In this document: piece by piece, positions 764-54,624 of the stretch
How positions within the stretch are numbered: position 1 is the first letter of the stretch
Layout: every line of letters starts with the position of its first letter
Assembly: GCF_006345805.1 (NCBI RefSeq)
Contig: NW_021832430.1
Coordinates: 62,001 to 126,000 of the forward strand
DNA from: Octopus sinensis
Lineage: Eukaryota
DNA length: 64,000 nucleotides
Reading direction: 5' to 3'
Translations under genes and position numbers: made by a program
Notes under the pieces: model-generated
What the model saw: only the letters and a program-made list of their open reading frames with translations
The model's database searches: none
Told to the model about the DNA's origin: nothing

Positions 764-2136
764 ATGAATAAAAACTTGAATAAAGAATATGAAAAACTAG
801 AAAATGGTTTTTCTGTTTATGTGAATGGGCCTAAAATGGTTAAAAAGACGAAAACAGGTCTGTGGCCAGTTCCTTGTAAAAACAGTATTTTGATAACTTA
901 TTTTGAGTATTTAATGAAATTCCCAATGAGTTAAACTATTTCCAGAAAAATAAAAAAGGCACATTAATATAATTATATCAGACTTTCTTGACCAAAAACC
1001 AATCCATAGTTTCTGGCAACTCCCCTCTAAAGAACAATCTGATGACAAGGAAAAAGAATTTATAACGTCTATTGATGAATATATCGAAGATTCAGGATCC
1101 AATTCGCCAAAAAATTCGAATTCTTTTCCAATAGACCCGATAGATTCTTTGAAGTTCGACTGCCTGTCTTCGTCTGTCCAAAAATGCAATTATATTTTTC
1201 AACAAATTCTTAAGCTAGAGAAACAGTTTTTGTTGATTCAATATTTTTAGGGAAAAAATATTGCTTTTACAGCAACTGTCAGAGTATGTTAATCAAGAAT
1301 CGTCAAATTCCCAGCCAGTTAATCCTCCGGATAATGACATTACAAATAGTGTTTATAATCAAATTAGTGAGTTGAATGACTCAAATCAAAATTTAAAAAA
1401 CGACTCAAATGAGTTGAATGAACACAAAATGTCTCGTGCTCCCTTACATTCTCAGTTTGAACCAAAATTCAGTTCAAAAAACAAAAAAATGCTTCCAACA
1501 ATAGAAAAAACAGCTTTAAAGAATTTGGACCTTATCAAAGTTTCAAATAAAAACTGTAACTACAAAACCGACGACATCATCTCTGAAGAATCAAAAATCT
1601 CGAATTTTTGTCAATCTACTGATTTTTTAATTCATAATTTATATTTTGACGGAATAAGTCAGTTTTTACAAAATCCTAATACACTGTTGTTTGAGATTAA
1701 ATCAAATTGGGGAGGTCAGTGCGTCGGAATTGACAAAATTAAAGTCACTATGACAAATGGAAATTTTTTAAACAATGTAAATATAGTTTTGCTTTAACCT
1801 TATAATAGTTCCATGTAATTATGAATAATAAATTATCCTTCTCCACAAATGACGCCAACTTTCTTTTACCTGAGTACAACCCGGAATTAAAAATATTAAT
1901 ATTTTCAAATTTTTGCGAACAATTACAAATTTCTAAAATCGACTTATGGGTATATATGATTATATTTACTTTAGAACTATGGAAATAGTACTCGGGTGGA
2001 CTTTGGAGTAAAATCTATAAAAGTAAGGTTAAACTCACAAGTTCTATTTGATGGAGAAATACCAAAAAATAACGGCAAAAAAAGTTTCGAAGTCTACGTC
2101 GACAATACTGAAGCTATAGTTACAAACCAAAATTAG
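764..2136 (+). CDS. KATNIP: KATNIP/KIAA0556-like ciliary protein (short, spliced)
   Basis: N-terminal EKLENGFSVYVNG resembles KATNIP EQGFSLYVNG. LLFEIKSNWGGQCVGI and NYGNSTRVDFGVKSIKV..LFDGEI resemble one KATNIP beta-sandwich repeat. Several short GT-AG introns; TAG at 2134-2136. Confidence 0.65.
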
Positions 2137-2189
2137 CTCGAATGAGATTTTTATGTTTTGATGATATTTATATTAAATTTAATTTTTTG

Positions 2190-2700
2190 TCTGACGTCGT
2201 CAAAAGGGCACTAGAGTCGGCAGGTTTCCCCTCCACTCTAGAGCCAGTCGGTCTCTGTCGGAGTGATGGAAAGCGTCCTGACGGGATGACTACCTTCCCT
2301 TTCAGGGAAGGCAAGTCCCTGATTTGGGATGCAACTTGTGTTGACTCGTTTTCCGCGACGATGTTACTCAAGTCCATCACTAACCCGGGTTCTGCCAGTG
2401 CTCAGGCTGAAGACGCTAAGAGGACGAAGTATGGAAGTATTTCGGACTCTTACGAGTTTGTCCCCCTCGCCTTCGAAACATCTGGAATCGTTGGCAAGTC
2501 TGGGACTCGCCTTCTTACCGACATTGCCAGTAGGATTGCTAGGAAGACCAACGACCGGAGGGAGACGAGCTGGCTCTTCCAGCGAATCTCGGTCGCGGTG
2601 CTCCGCGGAAACTGCCACTCGATACACAGCGCGGCGTCTTTGAGCTGACCTCCAAACTCTTATAAACTGTTCATATTTTGTTTAAGAATCTAAAAAAATA
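2190..2700 (+). mobile_element. 5'-truncated CRE-clade non-LTR retrotransposon (restriction-like endonuclease C-terminus)
   Basis: Open frame ...LEPVGLCRSDGKRPDGMT...WDATCVD...K..KY...FVPLAFETSG...QRISVAVLRGN ending at 2648. GC-rich relative to flanks, with an A-rich tail near 2692. Confidence 0.85.
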
Positions 2701-3422
2701 TATCAAAAACTAAAGATTTGAAAGATTCATTTTCTTGTATAAATCGAATAAGTTCTTCATTTTGTAAATGGAAGATGCCCTAATGTTTTCAAGGAACTTT
2801 AAATTTCGTCTATTTCAGAAATTCCGACACATTGACATTAAATTGAAACTGAAGATGGCGTATTTGGAGCACTTAGTCAAAAATTCGATATTCAATTTTG
2901 AGAAAAATATTCTCGACTAAAATATCAGCAAATAATTTAATGTAGTTTTCGTGTCAGTAGACAAACGACGTTTAAACTACAGGGAATGAAGCTTTCCTAA
3001 GATAAACTAGCATGAGATTTAATGTCCTGAATTTAGAATTAATAATATTTTGTTTTCCTAAAACATTTGAAACAGTTTAAAATTTGGTGTTCCAAAATTA
3101 CATTTTTTTACCGAAACTTATATTATTTATCTGGAAAAATATGTTGCAAATTAATACATTTATATATTTTAAAAACGTTTAATTAAAATTAAATCAGATA
3201 TCATTAAAGTCTATTAAACTTTTTTGCGGGTTAACCTAATTTAAACAAAAAAATAATAGCATGTTGACCTTGTTTATGGGCATTTGCGGTTTTTGTTGTT
3301 GCGCGTTAATTTGTCAGCACTTTCACTAAACTGCGCAGGGAAGACATACTATAACGTTCGCAAGCTTCATTTTGCCTTCTAAGTTCTCTTGAGAAAAATT
3401 AAATTTTTGTCTTCTCGTAAAA

Positions 3423-4665
3423 ATGACCCCAGAAAACACTCTCAAGCACATATCCGAGGTTATTAAGATGGCAGGCTTCTCTGAAGAAGAAGATTCTTTC
3501 TATGTCGTGGATCTGGACGATATTGTGTGCAAAATTTCAAAGTGGTTTACCTATCTTCCCCAAGTGCGTCCCTTCTACGGTAATCTTTATTTAACCACAT
3601 TTTAGCCGTAAAATGTAACAATGATAGACGGGTTCTTAAGTTGATGGTTGAGGCAGGATTGTCTTTTGACTGTGCTTCTGTGAGTGAAATACAAGCGGTC
3701 ACTTCTTTGGGGGCGACTCCCAGTCAGATAGTTTATGCAAATCCTTGCAAACAACTGAATGCTATAAAATATGCAAAGTCCAACGATATTTCCCTCATGA
3801 CATTCGACAATTATTCAGAACTTGTAAAAATAAAAAATCATTTCCCGACGGCCAGGTGCAGTGTTTTCTCATAAAGCCAGACTTATTCTTCGTATTCTGC
3901 CCCCAAGCAACGGCAAAGTTCAATGCAATCTTGGCCTCAAGTTCGGATGCGCCAAAGAAGATGTCTCAAGTCTGCTATTTGCGGCTAAATCAATGGAATT
4001 GAATATTGTGGGAATTAGGTGTGATTAGCTCATTCAGTTCTAGTTTCCATGTGGGCAGTGGATGTGAGGATCCGAAGCTGTATTGGCATGCTATAGAAGC
4101 TTCTAAATTTGCTTTTTCCGAAGCTATGAGAATCGGTTATTCTCCATACTTGCTGGACATTGGCGGAGGCTTTCCTGGAGCAGATGACAGTCCTGTTTCA
4201 TTTAAGCTGATTTCTGAGTATATAAATTCGGGACTCGCTACTTTCTTTCCTGGTGGTGACTTTCCATATCTCCAAGTCATTTCTGAACCGGGGAGATTTT
4301 TTGTGGCCTCGGCTTATACTTTGGTGACTCGAGTTGTCAGTGTTCGGCAGAGCTCTTCTAAAATGATGTACTATCTCAACGATGGAGTATATGGGGCCTT
4401 CAATTGTGTGATGTATGACCATGCTACACTTGCTCCTTTATGTCAACGGGGCCTGGATTTTAGTAAAATGTACAAATGTGATTTGTGGGGACCAACATGT
4501 GACAGTATCGACTGTATTTGTGAGGGGGTGGAGATGCCACTGCTTAGTGTGGATGATTTGATTGTCTTCAAGAACATGGGTGCTTACACTCTTGTTGCTG
4601 CGTCCAAGTTTAACGGAATGAACCGTGCCAAATGCCTATACTTGAATGATGCCATTATCCGCTGA
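3423..4665 (+). CDS. ODC1: Ornithine decarboxylase
   Basis: Removing introns 3580-3605 (26 nt), 3856-3880 (25 nt) and 4019-4043 (25 nt) restores PFYAVKCN (PLP lysine), FDCAS, SFHVGSG, LDIGGGF, EPGRF and WGPTCDS (catalytic Cys). Confidence 0.95.
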
Positions 4666-4809
4666 CAAACACTTCTACGTTTTCATAATTCTTTTTTTGT
4701 TGTTCGACTATTTCTCGTTTGGAGCTTTTGAATTAGTTTAACATAGGTTTTGTTTAACACTTAAAGAATTTTTAACGTCTAATTACATTTGAAAGTCTTT
4801 TTAGATGAT

Positions 4810-4960
4810 CTACTATGGTTGCGACCAGTCAATGTTAATTAATGTTGAAACTAGCGTACTCAGCAGGGTGACTAAGCTGCTTTTGTCAATGATGTATTAT
4901 CATGTCCGAATGCGGTATTCAGCAGGGTGACCCACTGAGCCCATTGCTGTTTCCCCTCTC
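4810..4960 (+). mobile_element. Reverse-transcriptase relic
   Basis: ggtattcagcagggtgacccactgagcccattgctgttt = GIQQGDPLSPLLF (non-LTR RT motif). cagcagggtgac occurs twice (4861, 4920). Confidence 0.6.
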
Positions 4961-5632
4961 TGTTGACTATATTGTACGGAACCTTTTTTCCAATGAAACT
5001 TATAAATTTAATGTATTGCTTTTATGGTTTTCTAGTTATAGAATGCCTTCGACAAAGTAAAAAAACGGTTACAAAAGGTAGTATGTAATAAATATTCAGG
5101 AAATAAAAAGTTCAACATTCATTTCCTAATTCCGACACTCACAGTAGTCCTAATAGTTACCTATTTTTGACTGAATTAATTTAATATTGGTTGTTTCACT
5201 TTAAAATTCTCATTTGTTTAATTTATGTCAGTTTTTTTAGCATCTTTAATTTTGAAACAAAGTTACTTCAAAGATGTTTATCTTTTCATCAAATTTATAT
5301 TTGAAATTTTTTAGCACGCGGTTGCGCACGTTGGTTTCTATTAGTGTGTTGCGTTGGCCACCAGAATCACCTAATCTAAGGATTTCCTTCAGATGTATGC
5401 ATATGTCTGTTGTAACGGAGTCGGTTCTACTCCCCTTTCCGAACATAACGGCGACGACTCAGACTTGTGCACATTCCCTGTTGGATCTTCAATGGAAAGG
5501 GTTTTCTGGAGACAATGATCTTCTTAATTAGTTCGGATACTTGTTCTCTCATTTTCTTTTTTGCTAAAACAATTGAATCATCAAAAAAAAAAAAATATTA
5601 GAATCTAACCCAGAATTTGACCAAAATATTTA

Positions 5633-6250
5633 TTCCGCATTGGCATCAGCACCAGACTTGGACTGGAGATATTCCGGACTCACAAATGCCGGTGTGGGGC
5701 CACCGTCGATTGTCATGAACACCATGCTCTCTCTTGTCGAAGAAGTGCAGGACGATTTCCAAGACACAAGGCGATCAACGAAACTGTCAAGCGAGCTCTG
5801 GAGTCTGCAGGATACCCAGCCGTACTTGATCCGGTCGGGCTTGACCGAGGAGATGGAAAACGTCCTGATGGGATTACAATTTTCCCATTTGAAGAGGGGA
5901 AACCCCTAGTTTGGGACGCAACCTGTGTGGACACTCTCTGCCCGTCCAACATTGCCGGGAGCGCAGTGGACAGACTGTATGCCGCGGAAAAAACGATGAG
6001 GGCAAAGGAGAGAAAATATGAAGCGCTGCGAGACCGATTCGTGTTCTGTCCGATTGTGGTCGAGACAACTGGAGGAATAAGTGGGAAATCGCTTCGCTTC
6101 CTAAAGAAGCTTGGACGCTTAGCCACATTAAAAAGCCACGACACACGTGAGACCCGGTGGCTTCTCCAGTTGATCTCCGTTGCTATCGTGAAAAGCAACG
6201 CAACGTCAATTATGTTGGCGGGGTCCACTTCGGATAGATGGCTTTGTTAA
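5633..6250 (+). mobile_element. 5'-truncated CRE-type retrotransposon copy
   Basis: RIGISTRLGL..H.CRCG zinc-knuckle region, GDGKRPDGIT, WDATCVDT, ETTGG, ISVAIVKSN. Confidence 0.85.
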
Positions 6251-6399
6251 CTTCTAGTAAATTACAGTAACTTTTGATTGTACAAACTATCTAAAATAAA
6301 TTCCTGATATTGATTTTCTGAACCATTATCATATGATGCTAAAAATATAATACAAATTTTAGATGCAAAATTCTATTTCTAAGAAAACCAAATTATCAT

Positions 6400-7260
6400 G
6401 TCCGAATGCGGAATCTTTCATCCAGTGTTAACTTCTGGTACTTGGATGACGTGACGATTGGTGGACACACAGATGTCGTTATGGAAGACATAAACAGATC
6501 ACTTCTGGGTTTTCAAAGATTGAGCTATCTCTACACGGCGGCAAATGCCAACTTGTTAATATTTCTCTTGCCCCCGCTGCTCTCTTCCACCCATTGAAAA
6601 ACTTTTTTTTTGTTCTCAGACTGACCTAAATTCTCCGGTCTTTCCCGTGTTTCGTTGCCGTTGATTCATTATCCAGAATCGACAATATCGTACATAAACC
6701 CTTAACATTTCATCTCAATCCAAGGATCACTAGCGGTGCTAGCCTACATACACGTTATCAACGTCGGCTTTCAGGAATTCTGTTTGCTCAGTTCTACTTC
6801 TTTCTCTCGAACCTAACGAGCTCTCGGAATACTCATTTGTCTACCGTGATGGTGCTCAATTGGCCTTGATTTCCCTGAGATTCAACTAATCCAAAAGGGC
6901 TGGGATAAAACCTTCTGCTTAAATACATTACGCAACTTTCCTTCAACCTGACCTCACTAAACTGTGCTTGTCATCAGCATACGGGAGACTGGCACAAAGC
7001 ACTCCATATCCCCAATATGCGATTACTACTGGAAGATGAGTCCTTATGGATATCTGTTTACGCTTGGGCTTGGACATGTGCCAGCCCCACCCTTGGCGAT
7101 GCGGGTTCACAATTTCGTCGAATGACTTGCACGCCTTGTCGACGGTAAGCGCCCCGACGGGGAGACAATCCTTCATTTTAGGGAAGAAAAGTCCCTGGTT
7201 TGGGATACCACTTGCTTCGACTCTTTTTCTGGGACGATAGTACCCGGGCTTCACCAGTGC
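6400..7260 (+). mobile_element. Degenerate CRE-type retrotransposon (RT and RLE fragments)
   Basis: NFWYLDDVTIGG (RT catalytic motif), CLRLGLDMCQPH, DGKRPDG; many frameshifts and deletions. Confidence 0.7.
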
Positions 7261-10030
7261 TCAGTGCCACTCTACTGCTAACCATTGGTATCCTTCTGGA
7301 CAATGAGTCCGTTAGGACAGGGGTTTGTTTACGTCTCGGTCTTTGTATATGTGAGCCACATGTCTGCTGCTGTGCTGGCCGTATCCTGCGGCACGGTGCT
7401 CTAAATCAGAGGTTTCCAAGCTTTTTTTTACGCGCCTCCCTTAGAGAAAAAGTACAATCTTGCGCCTCCCTTTATATTCCATAATATAATACAATTATTA
7501 TTTTATCAAAAACAATTTTTTAAAACAAAAAGTTAATGAGAGATAATTTTTTTTCCATCTTGGCGCAAAGTTTTTCAAATCTTGGTGTCATCGCAGAGAG
7601 TGCTACTCTTAGCTCATTAGTCACTACTAAACGAGTTCGATATTTAGATTTAATTGCAGCTAGTGCAGAAAATCCAGTTTCGCATAAATATGAAGTAGCA
7701 AATGGCAACAAAACTTTCATTGCTTTATTCGACAAAATTTCATATTCCGTTCTTACATTCAACAAAAAGAAATTAGCGGTTCTCTCTCAAATTTTTGTTT
7801 CAATAATGTATCGCATGACAATTCTATCAATTTTTCTTTTTCAAAAGTTGTCAATGCAAATTGATTATCTTCTTCATCAATAAATGGATTCTGTATCCAT
7901 TCGAACATTTTACAGTCGAGATCTTAAAATAGTGAGCAAAATGCTTCAACAAACAATCCAAATGTTCAGCAAATATGTCTTTGTTGCTTCAATGTTCACT
8001 ATGGCGCAAAAGGTGTTTAAAAGTGGAAACATGTCATAGATATTTTTTTGTATATTTGATTTCCATAATACCAATTTTTTCATAAATGCTTTTATTTTGT
8101 CCTTTTGAGAGAATAAATGTAGTTGTGGTCCCTGCATTGATTTATTCAATATACTCAATTTCCCAAAAATGTCAACTAAATAGGCAATTTGACAATAAAG
8201 TCATCATCCCTGAACAACTTTGCATCTTCAATATCATTTTCATCAAGAAAATCTGCAACTTGATCTTTGAGTTCAAACACCCTTCTAATCACTTTTGCAC
8301 GAGATAGCCAGCGTACCTCACAATAGTATAAAAGCGATGTATATTTTGAATCCATATCTTCACACAGCTTTGCAAAAAGCTTAGCTCTTAAAGGACTGTG
8401 TTTTATGTAGTTTATAACTTTTGTAATTTGCGCAAAAATATCGTTCAGTTCTGGACTCATATTCTTTGAGACAAGTGCTGATCTGTGCAGCATGCAGTGC
8501 GTCCAGATAATTTCTGGTGCTCTGTTTTTTACAAGAGCTTGAAGACCAGATTTATTTCCTGACATTGACTGTGCTCCGTCTGTACAAAGTCCAACACAAT
8601 TGATCCATTCTATGTTATTTTCTTCAAAAAAAGTATCAATTATATTAAAAATTTCATTGGCCGTGCTCCTTCCAGGAAATGGTTTGCAGAATAATAGATC
8701 TTCTATTATTGTACTTTCTTCAGCATATCTGACATATGCAATTAAATGTGCATTTTTATTTATGTCAGCTCCCTCATCAACTTGTATAGCAAATTTACAG
8801 TTACGTAGTCGAGAAACCAACTGATCACAAAGATCTTCAGATATGTCATCAATTCTTCTAGCGACTGTGTTATCAGCAAGCGGTATTTGCTGTAATTGTT
8901 TTGCATAGGATTCGCCAAACATTGCTTCAACCATATCGATAGCTGCTGGCAAAACTAGAGTTTCTCCGATATTGTGCGGTTTCTTGCATTTTGCAATCCT
9001 GTAAGAAACTTTGTACGATGCTAGTAAAGCATTTGAAGAGACAGAAACAAGTTTTTTTAACGATTTCGTTTGGTTATCAAACTCTTCTAATTTTCTTTTA
9101 AAAAATTCTTCAGACTTATGGACATGTTCAGAATGCATCGTTTCAAAATGTCTTCTTAATTTGCATGGCCTCATACTATCTGCTGCAAGTGTTTTGAGGC
9201 AAAGCAAACAGAGGGGTTTTTCCATAGAATCAACAAGATACGTGTGAATCCTAACAATAAGTAAGATGGAAAGTATTTTCTTGTCTTTGGAGTGGTATTG
9301 ATATTATATTCCAATCATTTTGATTTTTTGAACCATCGTCAAAATCTTTATTATTCGTGAATTTTCTTTTGCAACCACTCAAGAATTTATTCATGTGTTA
9401 AAATTATTTAATTGTCTAATAAATAAATAAATTTTTGAAAAATATAATTTTTAAATTAATAACTCTTATTATGGAATATAGTCACGTTTTTTACATAGAT
9501 ATAATTTTCAAAAATGTTTCTGAAATACTTTTCGCGCCTCCCTTGACACGAGTCAACGCCTCCCTAGGGAGGCGCGCCTCCCCATTTGGAAACCTCTGCT
9601 CTAAATGATCTCATCAGGAGAGCCTTAGAAGTCGCCGGAATCCCCTCTATACTCGGACCCACTGGGATCGATCGGAGAGACGAGAAGAGACCGGACGGAA
9701 TTACTGTGTTTCCCTTCAACAGAGGGAAGCCACTTACCTGGAACCTCATGTGTGTGGACTCATTCTCGCCCGAGAACCTGAGAAGGTTGGCTTTTTAGCG
9801 ATCGCTACTACTGCTGAATGTAAAAGGATGCGAAAGTATTCTTCATTTGTGGAGAAGTGCCAATTCCTTCTATTCGCAGTTGAGACGTCTGGTTCCTTAG
9901 TCGGAAAAGCAATCAGCTTCGTTCAGGAGATCGGGTCACAGGCGACGCCTGCAAATCGAGATGGTTTTTTGAGCGGATATTCCTTGCAATAGTACGCTCG
10001 AAGTCTTTCTCGATCGCGTCAGCCTCTCGC
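7260..10030 (+). mobile_element. CRE-type retrotransposon copy split by a hAT insertion
   Basis: The 5' part GILLDNESVRTGVCLRLGLCICEPHVCCC..RHGALN continues after the hAT as (ALN)DLIRRALEVAGIPS...KRPDGIT...AVETSG. Confidence 0.8.
7407..9598 (-). mobile_element. hAT (Buster/Charlie, ZBED5-like) DNA transposon with frameshifted transposase
   Basis: 13-bp TIRs CAGAGGTTTCCAA; 8-bp TSD CTCTAAAT (7399-7406 and 9599-9606); subterminal CGCCTCCC repeats. Transposase motifs CLLC..LAADSMRP.KLRRH, FAIQVDE, CTDGA, HCMLH, VRWLS, PFATSYLCETGFS across three ORFs. Confidence 0.95.
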
Positions 10031-12067
10031 CCAGTAAAGAATTAGCCTTTTTAATTCATTAAATGTTATAAAATGAAAAAATATATATAATTTGTTGAAT
10101 CATTACTTAATTGATCTTGTCAAGCATAGGAAGTATCGGCCTATCATTACCGGGTATTTACATAATCTATTTTCAAAGAAATTCAATGAAAATTTTATTA
10201 TTAATAATGGTAATCGTTTTTAATCTTCCTTGTTCTTTGCATATTTTTATGTTTAACTCGGAAATTCTTCGATATTTTTTGTAAGAAGTCTTGTATTTTT
10301 ATTGGTGAGTCGAAAAGATTTTATATTCACAAAGTCCAGCAAAAATATCATTTATATTTTGGGATATGATTGAACATGCCCAAATATAGCTTGATTAATT
10401 TCCCCAAAATATCATTTTTGTGCCTTTTTGGAAATATCTACTTTCTCTAAATTTGTACATAATTCTTAAAAAAATTTCAAAAATTCAATATTTCCGTTTT
10501 TTGTTACCCATCCTTCCCAAAATTTCTTTTATATTTATCCGAAAATACACTTTTAGACCAACGGACGACCCGAGAAAGGCAACTGCTTCGCAATCCGTGA
10601 GCCTGAGTGGGCGCCCTAAACTGCGTAGTCTTCAACAATCCTTCTCCATTTTCTAACTGTCATTAATTAACTTGCATGCAAAAAAAGACCAAACGAGTTG
10701 TGGTAAAATTTCTAGCAAAAATATTTCTGGATAATGAATAAAGTGCATCCACCTTAGGATTTTATTTCATTGTTTTCTGTGTTCGAATCTCAGAAAAAAA
10801 GTGCATTTAAACGTTTGCCGATATCAATGGTTTCAAAAATAATGATAACAAAAGACAGGCTCGGAAAGCGGCATACTTTGATCTTTGTTTTTTTTGTTCT
10901 GCAAGGGGCATATCTCGGAATCACAACGAATAAATTCACGAAAGTGTGTGGAACCTTGCGTACAAGAAAAGTGACTTTCCAGACTTGAAAAAAGATTTTA
11001 TTTGACTTGATTGTTCAACATTATTGAATTATTTTCGTTCAACGTGAATTGACTTGTCTGGCACTTTTAATAGTATAAATAATGTTCATCACATTTTAAT
11101 GCATTTATTTAAATTATGTACAAGTACAATGGCCAATTATTATGGCGCCCATAAAGCCATCCACTTTTACAATTTAATTGTTGATTCAAAGTGGCTAAAC
11201 ATGGACTAATTTAGAGAATAAAATAATTATTTGTTTCTATCTAAAAAGTCTGATACAAATCATTGAATTATCATAATTTAAGTATTAATTTACAAATTAA
11301 TGAGTGATCTCTTATGATATAAAATTAATATTTTCCATAATTGAATAAAATTAACATTTAAAGAAAAATTAATTGGGAGATAATGTCACCAGCGAAAAGA
11401 TTGCCATGTAATTATCCCCTAGTATGGAAAAAAAGTTTTTGGTTATTTCGGTAACTAAATAGTTTTATTTAACCTCCTTGGTATTTTGAAATTATTTGAC
11501 AAACATTTAAAGTGCTATAAAATTGACTAGAAACGACCCATTTGATGGCACAGTGAGAATAGATAAGTGGTTTGTCACAATTAGTAACAAACATGAATTG
11601 GTCATCTTGCTGATTAACATTAAATTTAACTAAAACCACAGTCTTCTTTATATGGCCTAAAGATCTACTTAAGCTGAATTAATTTTATCTTTGAACTACA
11701 TGTACTTTAAAATATTTTCAAAATCAGAAAGAAAATCTTGAAATTCCGGAAGAAGACAAAAATATATCCTACAAAATTGAATTAAATGATTAAAAATTCG
11801 AGGTCAATTTAAAGGAATAGCATTTTTTCAAAAAAAATTATCTGACCGCACAAATCGATAATTGCATTTCTGTTTTATCGAATGTAAAATGAGTTTTTAA
11901 CCTTGAAGTGAATCATATTATGTTCATGGGGTACTATTCCATCTGCGTCATCGGCTTCATTCGACGCCATCTAAACCTATCACAATAATTCACGCCAAAT
12001 TATATCGTGATAGAAAATTATTTAACGAGAAACAGCGGTCTATCATACGCTTAGCGGCTGCATTTTT

Positions 12068-12924
12068 ATGTCTCTCTGGGATTTTGATACATCAGTTGAT
12101 ACTTCTTTTGACATTCCTCCACAGTTACTTGAACCAGACTTTCAAATGCCTGAAAGCAACATTGAATTTAATAAATACGATTTTGAATGGCCTAATTATG
12201 CTTGTAACGATTTCAACGACCTTTTTGACGGGATTTATTCTTCTCAGACAAGCTTTTCTCTAAATGAAGATTCCGAATGCAAGTCTCCTCCCTCAAAAAA
12301 AATCAAGATAGAGGATCCCACTTCCTTCCAAGACTATTCCTTCCAAGATCATTCATTTTTAGAGAATTCCTTCCCAGACAAATTTCAGAGTGCTGAAGTG
12401 CCTTTACCAGTTTTAAGTAAGTTAAAATTAATATCAATTTTTTTTACTTTATGTTAATTAGAATGACCTAACCTATTTTAGAGGAAGAAACTCCTTCTCC
12501 TAAACGTTCTACTCCCCATAAAAAGATTGTCCTTCTTGATTCTCTTCCAACTAAAGGGGAGATTCGCTCAATAAAAAGGGAATTTTCTCCGAAAAGAAAC
12601 GATTATACAATATTTGATGATCTTTCTTTTTCTGCAAATTATTTCAATATGGAATATGGACGTCGTTCTGACCATAATGTGAGGGAACAGCAAAGAAGAA
12701 GAGTTATTACTAATCTTATGGAACGACTTCGAGTCACGGTTCCTTATACAAAAGGAGTTGAGAAGGCAACACGGCTAAAAATTCTTCAAGAAACCACAGA
12801 ATTTATTATTCATGAAAAAGAAGCAATTGAACGAAAGATTGACATAGTGAGTTTAATTTCACAAAAGATTGAGAATAAGTCCAAGTTTATTCTTGACTAC
12901 ATTGCATCTGTCCACAATTCTTAA
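12068..12924 (+). CDS. Myc-family-like bHLH-ZIP transcription factor
   Basis: Intron 12417-12481 (GTAAGT..TTTTAG) joins two ORFs in frame. C-terminal RRSDHNVREQQRRR..L..LR..VP....KA....IL..TTEFI has the His-Glu-Arg E-box residues. Confidence 0.7.
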
Positions 12925-34557: not shown

Positions 34558-35924
34558 ATGAAGCCACCAGCCTATATTAGAAATCGTCTTGTGAGCTGTG
34601 GATCATCCCTGATATCAGAAAAAGAAAATTTAGCTTTGATTCAAATAATTGGGAAAGGACGTCAGGTTGAACTTCGAATTCTAAATATAGTCATTGAGTG
34701 CAGGAATTGTACAAATTTTTAAAGCCTCTGAGCCTTATTTTGACAAATGGGAACTTGAATATACAGGAGTGGCATGTGTCATCAAAGATCACAGAATTCG
34801 GAGTTATGCAATTTATCTCGTTTCTATGGAGGAGGTTTTTAAGTTTTTAAGACTTCCAGAACCGAGTTATTCTTAAGGAACATCTGTTCGAAGGATTTCA
34901 ATTTTCGACTCCAATGGAAAACTTTCTTACATTTGAAACCAATGTAATATTATTAGTGATATTTTGAATTTATGCAATTAAAAAAACTTTTTTAGAATGC
35001 AATTTATGGACTTAACTTCGCCGATATGACGGAAGCTCAACATTTTAATAAAACTCTTAAAGACAAAACCAGAATAAAAAGTTTCCTTTTCATAGCTAAT
35101 AAATAGTCATGCCCCAAGTTAAACCGTTTATTCCAAAGGTGGCAGTCCCAGATACGACCAACAAATTAGATGACCGATCCGTATGTATCTGTTTATTAAT
35201 TTGAAGATTGATCCACAATTATTGAACATTTTAAAAATTACTGGCTGTGACCCCACGTTTGTTAAAGACAAAAAAACTTTGAATTTTGTGACAGAATTTA
35301 TCAAGAAAAATAAAGAAATAAACTCTATTTTAACCCAAGATAAAAGTTTCTTGTTTATTATAAAAGACCACTAGAATCTGCGGATTATCAATTTGAAGAC
35401 AAATTCCCATCCTCTATTCCAAATCCTCAACCCAAATCTCGAAAATCAAAGAACGCAGTTCAGCCATCACCACCTCAACTCAAAAGTTTATTCATATTTT
35501 TAAATTTTACGCAGTTCAGCCACCACCACCTCAACCAAAAAGTTTATTCATATTTTTAAATTCTACGCAGTTCAGCCATCACCACCCCCTTCAGTAAGCA
35601 TACCTCCCCCTCCTCCACCTCCTCCACCAATTCAAAAAACTTGTACTCCTGGTTCTGCTATATAATTAATGTTTTAGTCAAAATTACCCCTGATCGCGCA
35701 AATCTTCTTTCAAGTATTCGGAAGGGAGTTTCCTTAGTAAAAGTAATATTTGGAAATAAGTCATTTAAGAATGTTCAAGAAAAAAAACCTGCTGTTAGAA
35801 AAATGGGCATTGGAACGATGCTCAAGAAAACGATAGAACAGCGACATCAGGTACTTAATTCAGGTAGTATTGGTTATTTCACAATTTAGATGATTACGAT
35901 GAGCAGATAGAGGAAAATGATTAG
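34558..35924 (+). CDS. WASP/N-WASP-family actin nucleation-promoting factor
   Basis: WH1 (SSL.S..EN..L...IG..R.SL...VQ...W....TGVAC.IKD..RSY), post-CRIB helix IDPQL..IL..TG.....KD..T..FV..FI, polyproline, WH2 RANLLSSIRKGVSL.K, central helix, acidic tail. More than 10 micro-introns. Confidence 0.85.
35453..35586 (+). repeat. 56-bp tandem repeat (27-nt exon + 29-nt intron) within WASP
   Basis: About 2.4 copies of acgcagttcagccaYcaccacctcaac..aaaagtttattcatatttttaaattYt. Confidence 0.9.
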
Positions 35925-40115: not shown

Positions 40116-40235
40116 TTTTTTAAGCCCGACAAAATGTGGTTATTTAAAATGAATTTTCAATTTAGCATACGTTTTTTAAGCCCGACAAAATGTGGTTATT
40201 TAAAATGAATTTTCAATTTAGCATACGTTTTTAAG
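40116..40235. repeat. Perfect 56-bp tandem duplication
   Basis: ttttttaagcccgacaaaatgtggttatttaaaatgaattttcaatttagcatacg at 40116 and 40172. Confidence 0.95.
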
Positions 40236-45020: not shown

Positions 45021-45900
45021 CAGTCCGATCCCGCCTTGGAGCGCCAAATGTTTCAATTTGCCCCAAAATGTGGGGATATTTTAAAAAGTGAGGGTATTTT
45101 AAACATGCTTTTCTTTTTACTATTTTTTATTTTATTTCATTTCTTACAAATGGGTTAGATATGGAATTTGATTTTTAATTTTTAAGTAAATAAGAAACAT
45201 TAATATTTTATAAAAACTGAATTATGAATAATTAAAATAGTCACTAATTGTTCTTCCAATTTTCTCTTTCCTTAACTGTTGGGTTAATTTTATTTTAAAC
45301 TCATAGTAAATTTGTAGATTTTTGGAAAAATTTTGCGTAATCGACGTCATCGAAGAATTTTTAGAATGCATAAATAACTTCATTAACCTATGGATTAAAA
45401 ATTTTCAAAAACCTTTTCACTTTCTTGATTCCACAACATGTGTTACTGGAACTAACAAATAATTTCAATAAAGAAAGTTTGAAATACAACGCCACTTCGT
45501 CAAAGTTAATAGTTCATGCTCCCATTTAAAACGGTCCAACCACCCGTTTGATGCTTTAGATATGTTCAAGCAAAGTTTTCGGCGATTTTGAACGCAATAT
45601 TTTTTTGACAATGTTCCCGAAACTGGAATTGAATCATCCTTTAATTCTTGGAAAGCTGAAAAGACTAGCTTGTCTATCTCCAATAAATTAGACAAGTTCA
45701 AATTATTTTGTATTGATTGGTATGAAGGATACTTATCCTGACTTTGATCATAAAAAACAAGTAAAACTCTTTTTAAGCCGAGAAATGGTAACTAAAATAA
45801 GTAAATAATTTACTCAACATTTTTTACAATTTCACGTTGAGATAAAAAGTGTTCCGTGAAATCTTTAATAATTTTAAATTTTGTATCTTTAGTGAGAAAG
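45021..45900 (-). mobile_element. pogo/Tigger-like relic
   Basis: CENP-B HTH remnant IPVSG.L...KASNGWLDRFK; TA|CAGTC terminus at 45021; other end not found. Confidence 0.6.
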
Positions 45901-46137
45901 AAATAAACTAACGTGTTAATAAAAATAATTTGATAAAATGGTTTAAAATTAAGAAAATTAATGAAAATTATACTTATTTTTTCCCAATTCGAGGTTTCAA
46001 AATTTGCTAGGAACTATGAAAAATAGCATTTATTACTGCCATGTACCAAATGCAAGGCTGCCTCAAAAACTCCTCACAAAGTGAGAGTGGAACTGTTTTT
46101 CTCTGAATGCAGCTAAACTAGTTAGATTGTGCGAATT

Positions 46138-46260
46138 ACATCAAACTAGCATAAATCGATGACGGCGACTGAGGCATCCTGTACAAAGAGACCGTCGGGA
46201 AATACTTCCCTTCAAAAATATCGACAAACCCAACTGACATCAAACTAGCATAAATCGATG
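46138..46260 (-). other. Templated insertion of ASH2L exon sequence between 24-bp direct repeats
   Basis: 46160-46235 is the reverse complement of 54373-54449 with one G missing. acatcaaactagcataaatcgatg occurs at 46138-46161 and 46237-46260. Confidence 0.92.
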
Positions 46261-47026
46261 TCACTCAATTCGATTTAGTAATTGTATAATGAGAGTTCGT
46301 ATTCATTTACCACTTCAAACAGATATTTCCAAACTCTTGACTTTTCTTTACATTGTGAAAAATTGTTTTCATTGCTTTATTTTTTGACATTGCTTCTTCG
46401 ATCTTTTAAGACTCTAAAACCTATCGCTGTCCAGCACAACCATCCTAACATTTTGTACAAATAGATCATATTAGCCTTATACTTTTTGAGATTCTCTTTA
46501 AAAACCAACAGGATCAAAATATTTGTCGACATTTTGCACCATTTTTTAAAACGGTATCTACTTTTTTAGCAAATATTTTTACGTCACTAATAAACAACAA
46601 ATAGTTAGTTAAATATACAACAGGAGAAGAGTTACTTATACACATCTTTGGGAACTATATGTAAACTTTGACTTGACGGATTTATTAACAAAGTGAAAAA
46701 TGGGGAGAGAGTGAGTCTCCATGCGAAATTACTTTCCAGCTTAACTGTTTTAATTCTTTTATTATTCCAAATAAAAATGATTTAAATTTCTATGCAGATC
46801 AAGCACATGATATAATTCATGATTTACAGAGTCCAATGCCTCCTGACATCGATGCATGCAGCAAACAGGTTATTTCTATACTTACTGTTGAAACATTGGT
46901 TTATTAGCACCTTTGCGGTTTGACATGGGTTTTTGCTCCAGCCGATTATCCAAAATAATATTAAAAGCTTTATTTTTTACCATAAAGCATTCAAGCTATC
47001 AGTTTTTATTTTTTAATTAAAATTTA

Positions 47027-49225
47027 ATGGTTACAAGACTGAATGTATGTGTGACTACCTTAAATCAATGGGCACTAGACTTTAAAGGAAACTACGAGCG
47101 AATACGACAATGTTTGAAACAAATAAATTGATCTTAAAGCTTTTTTAAACTCAAAAGACTGTCACTATAGACTTGGACCTGACTTGGAAATTTCTGGAGC
47201 CAGTTGCTGTTCTCATTTCCGACGCCGCGAAGTCCATAAAAACTCATGGAAGATTCTTGCCAAATTAATGAGAGAATTCAGTGATTCCGAGACAGTGTAC
47301 GACGTTGGAATGTGACTATCATTTTTTATGAGCATAGGCCAATTTGTCACAAAGGGGACATTTATGTAACGAGGGCCATTTGTCATAAAGGGTGAGTTAA
47401 TTACATAAAAGTTTAGAAAATTAAAATTTCTTATTCCCAAGCCTCCCTATAAAGCCTTTGAGACGTGGTTTTCGGTGCCGAATGATGAGATTGTGGAGTT
47501 GAAAATACCCGAAGAGGCATTGAATCTCGGGGTGGATTTTTTTCATTTTTGTTAGGAATTTGTATTATTTGGACCTCAGGATTTTGCTATCAACAATATT
47601 TTATTTTCTTATACTACTAAAATAAGGTTATACATATTTTGTAATTAAATTTAGAGAAAATAAATATGTTTATATAAGTTCTGACCCGGTTGCCCTCACT
47701 AGTGAATATATCAGCCAAAAGCGGGAAGTAAATATTATAAATATAAAAATAGACTTTTCATGTCATACTGCAGGTCAATGTCATCGGGTGTGATGGGGCG
47801 GACGTTTACTACGCTGGAAATTCAAAAATAGTAGATTTGAGTGAAAATATTAACATTTCTACAAATCTATTTTCCCTAAAATTAGTGGTAACTAAACTGG
47901 TTTCTAATTCGACAGGAATCATTGACTGCAACTCTACAATTCACAAACAAAGAGGTAAAACTAGATTATCATCTATTTTAAAGGATCGGGAATTAAAAAA
48001 CAATTTAAATGTCTCCGTTCAAAATTTTAAAAAACTGTCTCCCCAAAGCAGAGTACCCCCAGTGAACAAACCGGAAATTTACTAGTAAATATATAATTAT
48101 TAGAATAGCTTTATATATTCTGCGGCCTGTTGGCTGTACGACTATCTGGTCGGGTGTGGTTTAAATGGTTTTTTTCTCGCTTTAAGTGGGGGTGCTGACA
48201 GTGCCTGTGTCTCGCTTATTATTTCTGTTTTACTACGTCATATAAAACAGGAAAATGGTTTGTAGTACAAAAATTGAAATAAGTGAGCTCTCCACTTATT
48301 GGATTCAAGACCTGCTATTTTCAATCAAAACGAAATAGTTCAGAGAATTCCCGATTGAGAGCAGAAAATATAGCAAAAGAGATTGGATCGTATTTTTGAG
48401 GTTTTTGATTAAAGGGATCATTCAATCATCGAAATCGACGACGTCGTGGATTCTGTTGTCCGTTCATTTGACTCTGAAGGAATGTCTAGGGAATCATATG
48501 AAGGTCTTCCTTTAGAGAATTTGCAGGTAATTTGATTTTGTTTGTTTTAGGCCAGAACGCGTATGATGATGTCATATTTCGCTTCTGTAGTAGGTGGGCG
48601 TTCATTGCTAGTATTGGGAACAGGAAATGCAGACGAAAGGCACAAAAGATTTGTTATTTTAGTGCTGTCGGGTATTTTACAAAGTACGACTGTTCAAGCG
48701 CGGATATCAACCCGATTGGAGATGCCGGTAAAGATAAGATCAGAAATATACTCTCATGGTATAAGGAGCATATTACTCAGACTGAACAAGGAAGGGAAGC
48801 TATTGACCAGTATTCTTTTAAAGTTTAATTTTTAAGGGTTTTACTAGCAGTGCCCAGTGCAGAACTTTCAAGCACAGTTGACGGACAGCAAAATCAGACA
48901 GATGAGGTATCGCTATTCACAATTTATTAATAGATGGATTTAGGAATGACGTATAAAGAGATTGGTGAAATCAGAACGCGGTTTTGTGATAAATTGTTTG
49001 TCGTCTTATTAATGCAGTTTAGGGAGGGAATGGATGATTTAGCAGACGCTTTTCAGGAGGTTAGTTTTTTTATATCTATAAAAGAATAAGCTAAAAAAAT
49101 TTTTCTATATGTATTCAAAAAATATGCATAAACAAGTTATACTTCCTCCATTTCTGCGCTTTTTTTCTAGTAATATTGGTCCCCGTCAACTTGTCCTGAT
49201 GAAGTACAGTTTTCCAGTTAATTAA
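47027..49225 (+). CDS. NADSYN1: NAD+ synthetase, two-domain type with degenerate glutaminase domain
   Basis: [110 protein letters not shown]; many micro-introns. Confidence 0.9.
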
Positions 49226-52662: not shown

Positions 52663-54624
52663 ATGAACCATAGTCAAGAAGAGCGAGTAATTTGTGACCT
52701 ATCCGACATAATGAACGTCGAAACTGAAATCAACGAAAAGACATGCTACTGGTGACTTCCCCACATAACCATCTCAGTGGGGGAAGCCGGCGACATTCCG
52801 AGGTGGAGGTTTACTGTTCCAAATGTGCCTGGTGGTACCACTCCTCTTGTGTCACCAAAAACGTGTCAATCATGACTCCTTTTTCAACTAACTACAATTT
52901 TGTATGCAAGAATTGTTCTGCTGATAATATCGAGCATTTTAGTAGAAAAGAACCAGGTTTGATTGTTTTTATAATTCAAAGGTGTCGTACAAATGTGCCA
53001 CACTGTCTTGGCTAACCTTCTTTATTTGAATTCCAAGTCTACGGACAGGAGAGAATATTATCATGTGGAATTGGTACAGAGGATGTGCTAAGATGGCAGG
53101 ATATTGTCCCTTTTATGGAGTCACATTGGAATGGCCTGACGACGATTCAAAAAATGCCAGTTTCCTCGTGGAAGCCACTTGTTCATAATACATTAGTAAG
53201 TGTCACACATCAACAATGTGATATTTAAATATTTATTTAATAATATATTTTTATAATTAAAGATCAAAAATCGAGATTTATTTATTCCAAGTAATTCTGC
53301 ATATTTAAAATCTTGTTGTCAACTTAACGAAGATATTCCCATGTTCTTCACTCTCTGCTCTCAGGTGAGGCATTGTGGATTACTGGCAGTACCTCAGTAC
53401 AATTTCTCCGCAAATGTTCACCAATAAAAGCATGGAATACCTATCCTCTACCACGGAGAACTGTATTTGTATATTTATATTAATTAAGTGAATAAGAAGG
53501 TTCAGAATAAGAGAGGACAGGCCACGGATTCGAATACTATCAAAAATCGAGTAAAAAAGTATAGTCCTTCACTACCCCGAGGGAACATCCTGTCAAACTC
53601 TATTCCGACGGATATCCGTTAGAACACACGTTCAACCGGGAAGGATATTTCTGGCACTACGCTCAGCCTGACCCATTCGCGCCTTTCCAGTCTCAATTCC
53701 AGGAATGTTTAGAAGGCACCAGTAATAATCCAATTCCCGCCTTTTTGTACCGTGCTTGGCTTCCCGCCAAAGTGCATTTGTCATATGTGGATCGAGGTAC
53801 AACGTGGGTATTCACTATTAGCCCACCAATTGAAACTGGGGGATAATTTGATGGAGGTTACTGGACTGAAGGGGTACTCCATGGTGCGGGCTACTCACGG
53901 AATTTCCCACGGCACGTGGTATTGGGAATGCAAGTTTACTTCCCGCCCTAAGGACGCCCATGTCAGAATCGGATTTTCCCGCCTTTTCTGTATGTATTTA
54001 AGAATATTGGTAAGCGACTACTCAGGCACCGTGTGGTTACGACGAATTGAGTTATTCGTGGAGATCACGGAAGGGGACTGTTTTCCACAACAGTCGAGGG
54101 AGACACTTTTCAGGGGAATACGGCGAGGGGGATGTCCTCGGGTTTATGATTCACATGCCCTCTTTCGACTATGCTTTCCCCGAGTCATTAAAATCGAAGG
54201 TTTGTTGTATTTTTAATTTGTAGGCGTTGATGCGTTATCGAGGGAGTTATTATTTTGAGGAGATTGTGGACGTCCCCAAGTTAAAGCAGTCCACTAAACC
54301 CTGCGAGGGGTCATATGTAGGTCACAGGAGTCTACTTTAGATTGAGTTTTTTAAAAATGGTGTGAGTCAAGGAGTTGGGTTTGTCGATATTTTTGAAGGG
54401 AAGTATTTCCCGACGGTCTCTTTGTACAGGGATGCCTCAGTCGCCGTCAATTTTGGTCCTTGCTTTAGTGCTGTGCCACAAACGGATACGGTCTTTAGTC
54501 CGGTTTTGGTTTGTTTTATTGGCAGTTTAGTGATGTGGTGAGTTATGCCAATGTGGAATCTGTGTTGGCCGATGCTGTGTTTTTTACTGAGAATATGGAC
54601 AAATTAACTGATTCTTTGAACTAA
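52663..54624 (+). CDS. ASH2L: Set1/Ash2 (COMPASS) subunit ASH2
   Basis: PHD-like C..C..W.H..C...PF.TNY.FVC..C, GYPLEHTFNREGY, SPRY domain DRAHQLKL..KGYSMVRATHG...GTWYWE..R.GFS, FFKNGVSQGV.F.DIFEG.YFP.VSLY...V.VNFGP.F. Confidence 0.93.

What the first reader, a model, noticed from the sequence alone, without database searches (positions are those of the whole stretch)
46138..46260. A 76-bp inverted copy of an ASH2L coding exon inserted about 8 kb away, flanked by perfect 24-bp direct repeats
Seen: 46160-46235 is the reverse complement of ASH2L exon sequence 54373-54449 (agttgggtttgtcgatatttttgaagggaagtatttcccgacggtctctttgtacagg(g)atgcctcagtcgccgtca) and differs only by one missing G. It lies between two identical 24-mers (46138-46161, 46237-46260). 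There is a 2-nt TG microhomology at the left junction, one untemplated G at the right, and no poly(A), TIR or LTR. Inference: a recent templated insertion with a long target duplication. Candidate mechanisms are repair synthesis (Pol theta/MMBIR-type) copying a nearby locus, or internally primed reverse transcription of ASH2L RNA by one of the abundant RLE retrotransposons. If such events recur genome-wide they would be an undescribed local exon-capture process.
Basis: partly seen in the sequence, partly recalled or inferred. Interest (0 to 1): 0.75.

Follow-up and report, generated by a model that had tools for sequence, protein, structure and literature searches.

The report
Repair scar copying a nearby exon
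A 77-base piece of a gene is copied backwards into a dead jumping gene 8 kb away, between two copies of a 24-base flank; it is real DNA, likely from a tiny parasite sequenced with its host, and likely an ordinary scar of broken-DNA repair, a kind already described in vertebrates and found repeatedly nearby.

Summary
Short-read contigs of run X1 reach across both junctions at about single-copy depth, so it is unlikely to be an assembly chimera. The 'missing G' is likely an assembly error. The window lies on a gene-dense contig with ~24-nt introns, likely a dicyemid parasite. The acceptor is a decayed non-LTR retrotransposon whose paralogs lack the insert.

The event recurs. In 1.84 Mb, 30 of 101 short two-copy pairs lie within 10 kb (1.1 expected), and 7 of the 30 have a flanking direct repeat. 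Donors are coding and non-coding, in both orientations. A sister event has true empty alleles: its 18-bp 'TSD' is a copy of downstream flank, made by serial microhomology switches. So long flank repeats here need not come from staggered cuts. Repeats flanking young mobile elements are 9-16 bp, and no spliced copy was found, so RLE reverse transcription is unlikely.

This is a repair-mediated duplication (Pace et al. 2009). It is neither an undescribed process nor exon-specific. This scan found the class before in other genomes and in the host part of this one. What is left of interest is a possibly high density in this parasite.

The parts
46138..46161 (+). Left copy of the 24-mer (target sequence; G>T at 46149 in run X1)
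46160..46161 (+). 2-nt TG microhomology shared by the target end and the donor; likely priming site
46160..46235 (-). Inverted copy of an exon-internal piece of ASH2L (76 nt in the assembly, likely 77 nt and identical to the donor in reads)
46235..46241 (+). Right junction with the extra G at 46236; reverse complement of 46257-46263, a possible snap-back footprint
   Evidence: a 5-nt stem at the two ends of a 24-mer arises by chance in 1.4% of random sites
46237..46260 (+). Right copy of the 24-mer; aligns with reverse-transcriptase coding sequence of paralogous elements
46134..46760 (-). Acceptor: decayed non-LTR retrotransposon copy (RT region) interrupted by the insert; three paralogs hold the site once, without ASH2L sequence
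45468..46090 (-). Neighbouring pogo/Tc5-like transposon remnant (multi-copy family), ends before the insertion site
54373..54449 (+). Donor segment, 8.2 kb away, inside one exon (touches no splice junction)
54342..54502 (+). ASH2L SPRY-domain exon; 24-nt GT-AG intron before it (borders read from the sequence)
   Evidence: ASH2 PHD Pfam hit at 52728-53012

Best explanation
The insert is a real copy of 77 bases of the ASH2L exon 8.2 kb away, sitting in a dead retrotransposon, and it was likely written by microhomology-primed repair synthesis on nearby chromosomal DNA at a germline double-strand break (a repair-mediated duplication). Shown: the copy, its direction (exon to dead element), its presence in reads, and recurrence with a strong local bias. 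Inferred steps: (1) a break in the dead element leaves a top-strand 3' end at 46161, with the 24-mer doubled either by nicks 24 nt apart or by a first aborted round of synthesis on the other broken end; (2) this end pairs through TG with the ASH2L sense strand and copies 75 nt; (3) it lets go and is joined to the right end through a 1-nt overlap, possibly after that end snapped back on itself and added two bases. Polymerase theta is the likely junction enzyme; the 75-nt tract may come from an SDSA/MMBIR-like polymerase. The scar is likely neutral.
For: Both junctions lie in short-read contigs at depth 36.5 and 35.9, and the shared piece has 72.7. The donor-side remainder computes to about 40, so the insert is in most copies. 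The acceptor is an interrupted element whose paralogs lack the insert, the same test Pace et al. used. Local bias: 25 of 101 pairs within 5 kb (0.55 expected), 30 within 10 kb (1.1 expected); 13 of the 30 are inverted; 7 of 30 have a flank-repeat score >=10, against 4 of 63 distant pairs and 2 of 250 random sites. Sister event C8901:7748-7899 is filled in 4 contigs and empty in 3 loci; it shows a 5-nt deletion, then switches through TG, TAC and AAAT microhomologies (flank copy, flank copy, 91-nt donor copy from 1.6 kb away). A compact POLQ gene with helicase and polymerase parts lies on contigs C9300/C10643. Direct and inverse flank copies from aborted synthesis are described for Pol theta (PMC7165422 passages).
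Against: No empty allele of the focal site was found, so the origin of the 24-mer is not settled. PMC7165422 says primary Pol theta tracts are rarely over 10 bp and distal templates are under 0.1% of repair, so Pol theta alone fits the 75-nt tract poorly. The 8.2-kb distance is beyond the 5-kb cut-off that Pace et al. used for confident cases. The focal template is the sense strand, which RNA would also supply. X1 may be the source sample and is held as contigs only; the left junction falls short of the tool's bridging rule. The census covers 1.84 Mb, so distant donors are under-counted, and some pairs are transposon ends.
Confidence: 0.8

Rival explanations
1. A retroelement or transposon nuclease made the staggered break, its integration aborted, and host repair then captured nearby DNA. 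This keeps the best explanation's copying step and names the source of the break.
For: RLE-like fragments are dense (260 tblastn HSPs in 1.84 Mb). Five of 9 flank repeats of local copies are 10-16 bp, within the mobile-element range. Pace et al. tie RD rates to L1 activity.
Against: Repeats at young elements are 9-16 bp, 0 of 23 at 17 or more, against 4 of 9 local events at 18 or more (Fisher p=0.0035; small, differently ascertained sets). The 18-mer of the sister event is not a cut duplication at all.
Confidence: 0.25
2. An RLE reverse transcriptase primed internally on ASH2L RNA, perhaps a nascent transcript, and inserted a tail-less cDNA.
For: If the TG end primed, the template was the ASH2L sense strand. 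The copy lies inside one exon, so it cannot exclude RNA. RLE-like elements are abundant.
Against: No tail. The 24-bp repeat is outside the 9-16 bp range. Several donors have no open frame of 45 aa. None of 129 gapped chains in 1.04 Mb looked like a spliced single-copy gene (judged from the listing). The sister event is best read as copied from the antisense strand. In human, 0 of 39 proximal copies had poly(A), against 17 of 29 inter-chromosomal ones.
Confidence: 0.08
3. Artefact of assembly, polishing or amplification.
For: The assembly does carry a likely 1-base error inside the insert. X1 may be the source sample. The left-junction contig has only 18 laid letters in the insert.
Against: Junction contigs have single-copy depth and begin and end where a 31-mer graph predicts. 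They differ from the assembly by 10 of 528 and 2 of 168 substitutions yet keep the insert. The sister event is shared by 4 separate contigs, three of them about 2% apart.
Confidence: 0.03

Closest known systems
Repair-mediated duplications (RDs), Pace, Sen, Batzer, Feschotte 2009, PMC2671141 (read: parts 1-5 of 8 of the text)
   Same: Short single-donor copy inserted in an interrupted transposable element; donor close by on the same molecule; microhomology, filler and sometimes a TSD; no poly(A); exons can be copied in inverted orientation (their ACSBG2 case).
   Different: Host is likely a dicyemid, not a vertebrate. Distance 8.2 kb (their confident set is <=5 kb). Flank repeat 24 bp (their range 4-21). 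Rough density here 3-5 per Mb (>=50 bp, <=5 kb), against 0.08-0.65 per Mb of TE DNA there; the methods are not like for like.
Pol theta templated insertions (TINS; PMC7165422 passages; Drosophila alt-EJ, PMC2895639 passages)
   Same: Serial short-microhomology priming, direct copies of the other end's flank, inverse (snap-back) copies.
   Different: TINS are 3-30 bp and almost always from the immediate flank; here 75-91 nt come from 1.6-8 kb away.
Tandem duplications from paired nicks with protruding ends (PMC5730883, passages)
   Same: Sequence between two nicks is doubled; TMEJ versions can carry templated inserts.
   Different: Those are mostly plain duplications made by cNHEJ; a stagger is not shown for this site.
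MMBIR-linked templated insertions (MMB-TI; PMC8421209, abstract and outline only)
   Same: Template switching at microhomology onto nearby DNA.
   Different: Not compared in detail; only the abstract was seen.

Membership tests
Repair-mediated duplication (Pace 2009) | Insertion of at least 50 bp with a single donor elsewhere in the genome | tested here: met
   76-77 bp, one donor in the assembly
Repair-mediated duplication (Pace 2009) | Acceptor identifiable as an interrupted element or empty site | tested here: met
   Three paralogous RT copies lack the insert; they are about 57-61% identical, so only a proxy
Repair-mediated duplication (Pace 2009) | Donor on the same molecule and close (operational cut-off 5 kb) | tested here: inconclusive
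   Same contig, 8.2 kb: beyond their ad hoc cut-off, inside the local tail seen here (25 pairs <=5 kb, 30 <=10 kb)
Repair-mediated duplication (Pace 2009) | Microhomology, filler, deletion or TSD at junctions; no poly(A/T) tract | tested here: met
   TG microhomology, 1-nt filler, 24-bp repeat, no tail
Pol theta TINS | Insert of 3-30 bp templated from the immediate flank | tested here: not met
   The main tract is 75 nt from 8.2 kb away; only the junction and the sister event's flank copies fit
Pol theta TINS | Dependence on POLQ | not testable with these tools
   A gene is present; no genetics
Non-LTR retroposed copy (TPRT) | 3' tail or element 3' end | tested here: not met
   None at either junction
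Non-LTR retroposed copy (TPRT) | TSD in the range of local elements | tested here: not met
   24 bp against 9-16 bp
Non-LTR retroposed copy (TPRT) | Intron loss in the copy | tested here: inconclusive
   The focal copy is exon-internal; no spliced copy among 129 chains in 1.04 Mb
Dicyemid origin of the contig | Introns under 30 nt, compact genes, GC about 36%, cephalopod host label | tested here: met
   24-nt GT-AG introns; a run X3 contig skips such pieces; GC 0.355, CpG o/e 0.93 against 0.40-0.55 on loci of the large contigs C3, C7, C24; an identical protein carries an octopus label in NCBI, other hits are at most 50% identical; PMC6736024 and PMC13644364 passages
Dicyemid origin of the contig | Phylogenetic placement or rRNA match | not tested
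   No tree built

The most novel reading that the evidence does not exclude
In this retroelement-laden parasite, an RLE retrotransposon protein nicks DNA and, failing to find its own RNA, primes on nascent transcripts or R-loops of genes a few kb away. This would write tail-less local gene fragments with long flank repeats at several times the vertebrate rate. The focal event's strand and exon-internal position do not exclude it.
Probability: 0.08. Interest if true: 0.6.

Novelty: new member of a known kind. Interest (0 to 1): 0.22.

Why it matters
As a single event it is a neutral repair scar. Two points have some value. First, filled and empty alleles in the same assembly show that a long 'TSD' beside a captured sequence can be a templated copy of flank, which warns against reading such repeats as nuclease staggers. 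Second, this likely dicyemid genome may carry proximal captures at several times the vertebrate density. A full census with haplotypes could then test whether mobile-element breaks drive them, as Pace et al. proposed for primates.

Tried and rejected
No RNA holder was listed, and the lack of X3/X2 cover on the flanks is not evidence on expression. X5 (about 93% alike over 47006-48899) does not cover the site, so there is no outgroup empty allele.

Hairpin-directed breakage: the inferred pre-insertion site folds into two hairpins (z=-2.1), but 0 of 6 other events reach z=-2 and 5% of random sites do; rejected as a rule. Loss of classical end joining: a compact Ku70-like gene exists (label from my reading of the frames). 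The ligase IV search rang nowhere, not even for the host, so it is uninformative. An excess of flank repeats over human RDs: 7 of 24 against 6 of 39, p=0.21; 6 of the 30 pairs were set aside by eye first (3 like transposon ends, 2 near-tandem, 1 doubtful).

Three orphan repeat-flanked inserts were searched genome-wide for distant donors: one looks like a local duplication, one is a repeat mosaic, one matches only an identical second contig. The first attempt at CRE TSDs had poor boundaries and was replaced. The pogo family does not span the site. The bacterial promoter scan is irrelevant to this organism. Pfam gave no family for the CRE-like ORF; 'CRE-like/RLE' rests on recalled motifs. Literature searches for RDs or repair in dicyemids listed no such paper, but searches were swamped by loose matches, so absence from print is not shown. 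No supplements were read.

Full report
Observation. The two 24-mers (46138-46161, 46237-46260) are identical, and 46160-46235 is the reverse complement of 54373-54449 at 76 of 77 columns. A search of the whole assembly finds no other source. The donor exon encodes part of the ASH2L SPRY domain, and the copied piece touches no splice junction.

Organism. The window is G000:C8901:62001-126000 in a 2.72-Gb assembly, yet it is gene-dense with 24-nt GT-AG introns. CpG o/e is 0.93, against 0.40-0.55 on loci of the large contigs C3, C7 and C24. A window protein carries an octopus label in NCBI, while its other listed relatives are at most 50% identical. Dicyema japonicum lives in octopus kidneys and has a 67.5-Mb genome, GC 36.7% and mean introns of 38 bp (PMC6736024, passages). 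Among animals only myxobolids and dicyemids have such short introns (PMC13644364, passages). The contig is therefore likely a co-assembled dicyemid; no tree was built.

Real or artefact. Logan contigs of run X1 were laid on 45300-48900. Record 4 (depth 35.9) starts at 46206, the first 31-mer that holds 46236, and crosses the right junction. Record 2 (depth 36.5) crosses the left junction and is laid to 46179, with 10 letters left over. That is what an insert with three C would give, ending at the last unique 31-mer. Only 18 laid letters lie in the insert, below the tool's bridging rule. The contig over the shared piece has the extra C and depth 72.7, and the remaining depth in that bin computes to a donor-side contig of about 40. 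So the insert is likely in most copies and identical to the donor, and the missing G is likely an assembly error. No joint that skips the insert is listed, but contigs drop rare variants. X1 differs from the assembly at 10 of 528 and 2 of 168 flank positions, including one in the left 24-mer, and still holds the insert. X1 may be the source sample.

Acceptor. With one 99-bp unit removed in a script, the site aligns to three diverged copies of a non-LTR element (57-61%). Their RT frame matches 46654-46483 and 46322-46254 (RVT_1 for the paralog), and they hold the 24-mer's counterpart once with no ASH2L sequence. The direction is thus exon to dead element. The site is intergenic, about 1.4 kb before an NAD-synthetase-like gene (weak Pfam hit).

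Recurrence. In 1,839,704 bases from five parasite-type contigs there are 101 two-copy pairs of 30-400 bp at >=90% identity: 50 on the same contig, 25 within 5 kb (0.55 expected) and 30 within 10 kb (1.1 expected). Thirteen of the 30 are inverted. Seven of the 30 have a flank-repeat score >=10, against 4 of 63 distant pairs and 2 of 250 random sites. Some inverted pairs look like transposon ends. Flank repeats of local copies measure 24, 22, 21, 18, 16, 13 and 10 bp, and two more of about 10 come from the smaller first census. Donors include ASH2L, a 431-aa TPR-like frame (weak Pfam hit) and a potassium-channel gene whose copy has no flank repeat. Three other donors have no open frame of 45 aa, so capture is not exon-specific. 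Counting pairs of >=50 bp within 5 kb gives 13, or 6-10 after doubtful ones are set aside by eye: roughly 3-5 per Mb, against 0.62 per Mb of TE DNA in human. The methods differ, so this is a lead only.

The sister event. C8901:7748-7899 is filled in C8901, C268, C9495 and C1801 and empty in C12218 and twice in C10135. The empty allele already holds the apparent filler and one copy of the 18-mer. The filled allele has lost 5 nt. It reads as three templated steps, through TG onto downstream flank, through TAC back to the break end, and through AAAT onto a donor 1.6 kb away, followed by a join without microhomology. The 18-bp 'TSD' is therefore a synthesis product. Read in the direction that gives every start a microhomology, the donor template is the antisense strand, i.e. 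DNA (inference).

RNA route. RLE-like fragments are abundant (87 HSPs in 456 kb; 260 in 1.84 Mb; the clade label is recalled). Of 326 young repeat islands, 23 have a flanking repeat of 9 bp or more, all 9-16 bp (6 of 89 CRE-like islands); 5 of 326 random controls reached 9. None of 129 gapped chains in 1.04 Mb looked like a spliced single-copy gene, judged from the listing. The focal copy has no tail. Its template strand is the sense strand, so RNA is disfavoured but not excluded.

Mechanism. Shown: copy, direction, microhomology, recurrence, local bias, and a POLQ gene with helicase and polymerase parts on compact contigs. Inferred: a break in the dead element; doubling of the 24-mer by staggered nicks (PMC5730883, passages) or by an aborted first synthesis (PMC7165422, passages); TG-primed copying of 75 nt; and closure, perhaps after a snap-back, since 46235-46241 is the reverse complement of 46257-46263 (the 5-nt stem arises by chance in 1.4%). 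Against a pure Pol theta model, its primary tracts are rarely over 10 bp and distal templates are under 0.1% of repair.

Comparison. Pace et al. 2009 (PMC2671141, parts 1-5 of 8) describe 824 human proximal duplications of up to 619 bp. Six of 39 inspected had a TSD (4-21 nt over their table), none had poly(A), and one exon was copied in inverted orientation. The finding works like these and meets their features, except that 8.2 kb exceeds their ad hoc 5-kb cut-off. Earlier notes of this scan report the same class in other genomes and in the host part of this one (unchecked AI notes).

Verdict. Real, recurrent and of a known kind. Interest 0.22.

Noticed in passing
G000:C8901:7748-7899 (L011) against L215-L219, L213: Sister capture with filled (4 contigs) and empty (3 loci) alleles; multi-step template switching, apparent 18-bp TSD is a copy of downstream flank.
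   Followed up: yes
L051:1016-2476 and L052:846-2307 (C11397, C12460): Two 97%-identical copies of a compact Ku70-like gene; the L051 copy is cut off by a CRE-like element at 2476. No compact Ku80-like gene appeared in the Ku search, which scores few candidates.
   Followed up: partly
G000:C8901:316716-317735: CRE-like insertion with a 14-bp TSD whose 5' junction starts with a 100-bp inverted copy of its own 3' end; the TSD is quasi-palindromic.
   Followed up: partly
G000:C8901:54155-54205: 51-bp inverted copy of DNA 3.7 kb away, inserted in the endonuclease region of a CRE-like fragment.
   Followed up: partly
G000:C8901:43499-43546: 48-bp direct copy of an inward-rectifier potassium-channel coding piece 2.0 kb away, no flank repeat.
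   Followed up: partly
G000:C8901:2071-3402: 1.3-kb element with terminal inverted repeats and an 11-14-bp target repeat, absent from C12218 and from one C10135 copy.
   Followed up: partly
G000:C8901 about 900-12500; C12218, C10135, C268, C9495, C1801: The start of the contig exists in at least 7 near-identical copies (haplotypes or a duplicated region), near degenerate TAACCC-like repeats at 2439-2700.
   Followed up: partly
window 40116-40232 and 35453-35586: Perfect 56-bp tandem duplication, and a three-copy 56-bp array beside a WH2-motif frame.
   Followed up: no
G000:C7755:176255-176880: Cluster of three short repeat-flanked inserts within 630 bp, one a 48-bp copy from 463 bp upstream.
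   Followed up: partly
window 47006-48899: Run X5, labelled another organism, holds a contig about 93% alike: a related parasite lineage may be present there.
   Followed up: no
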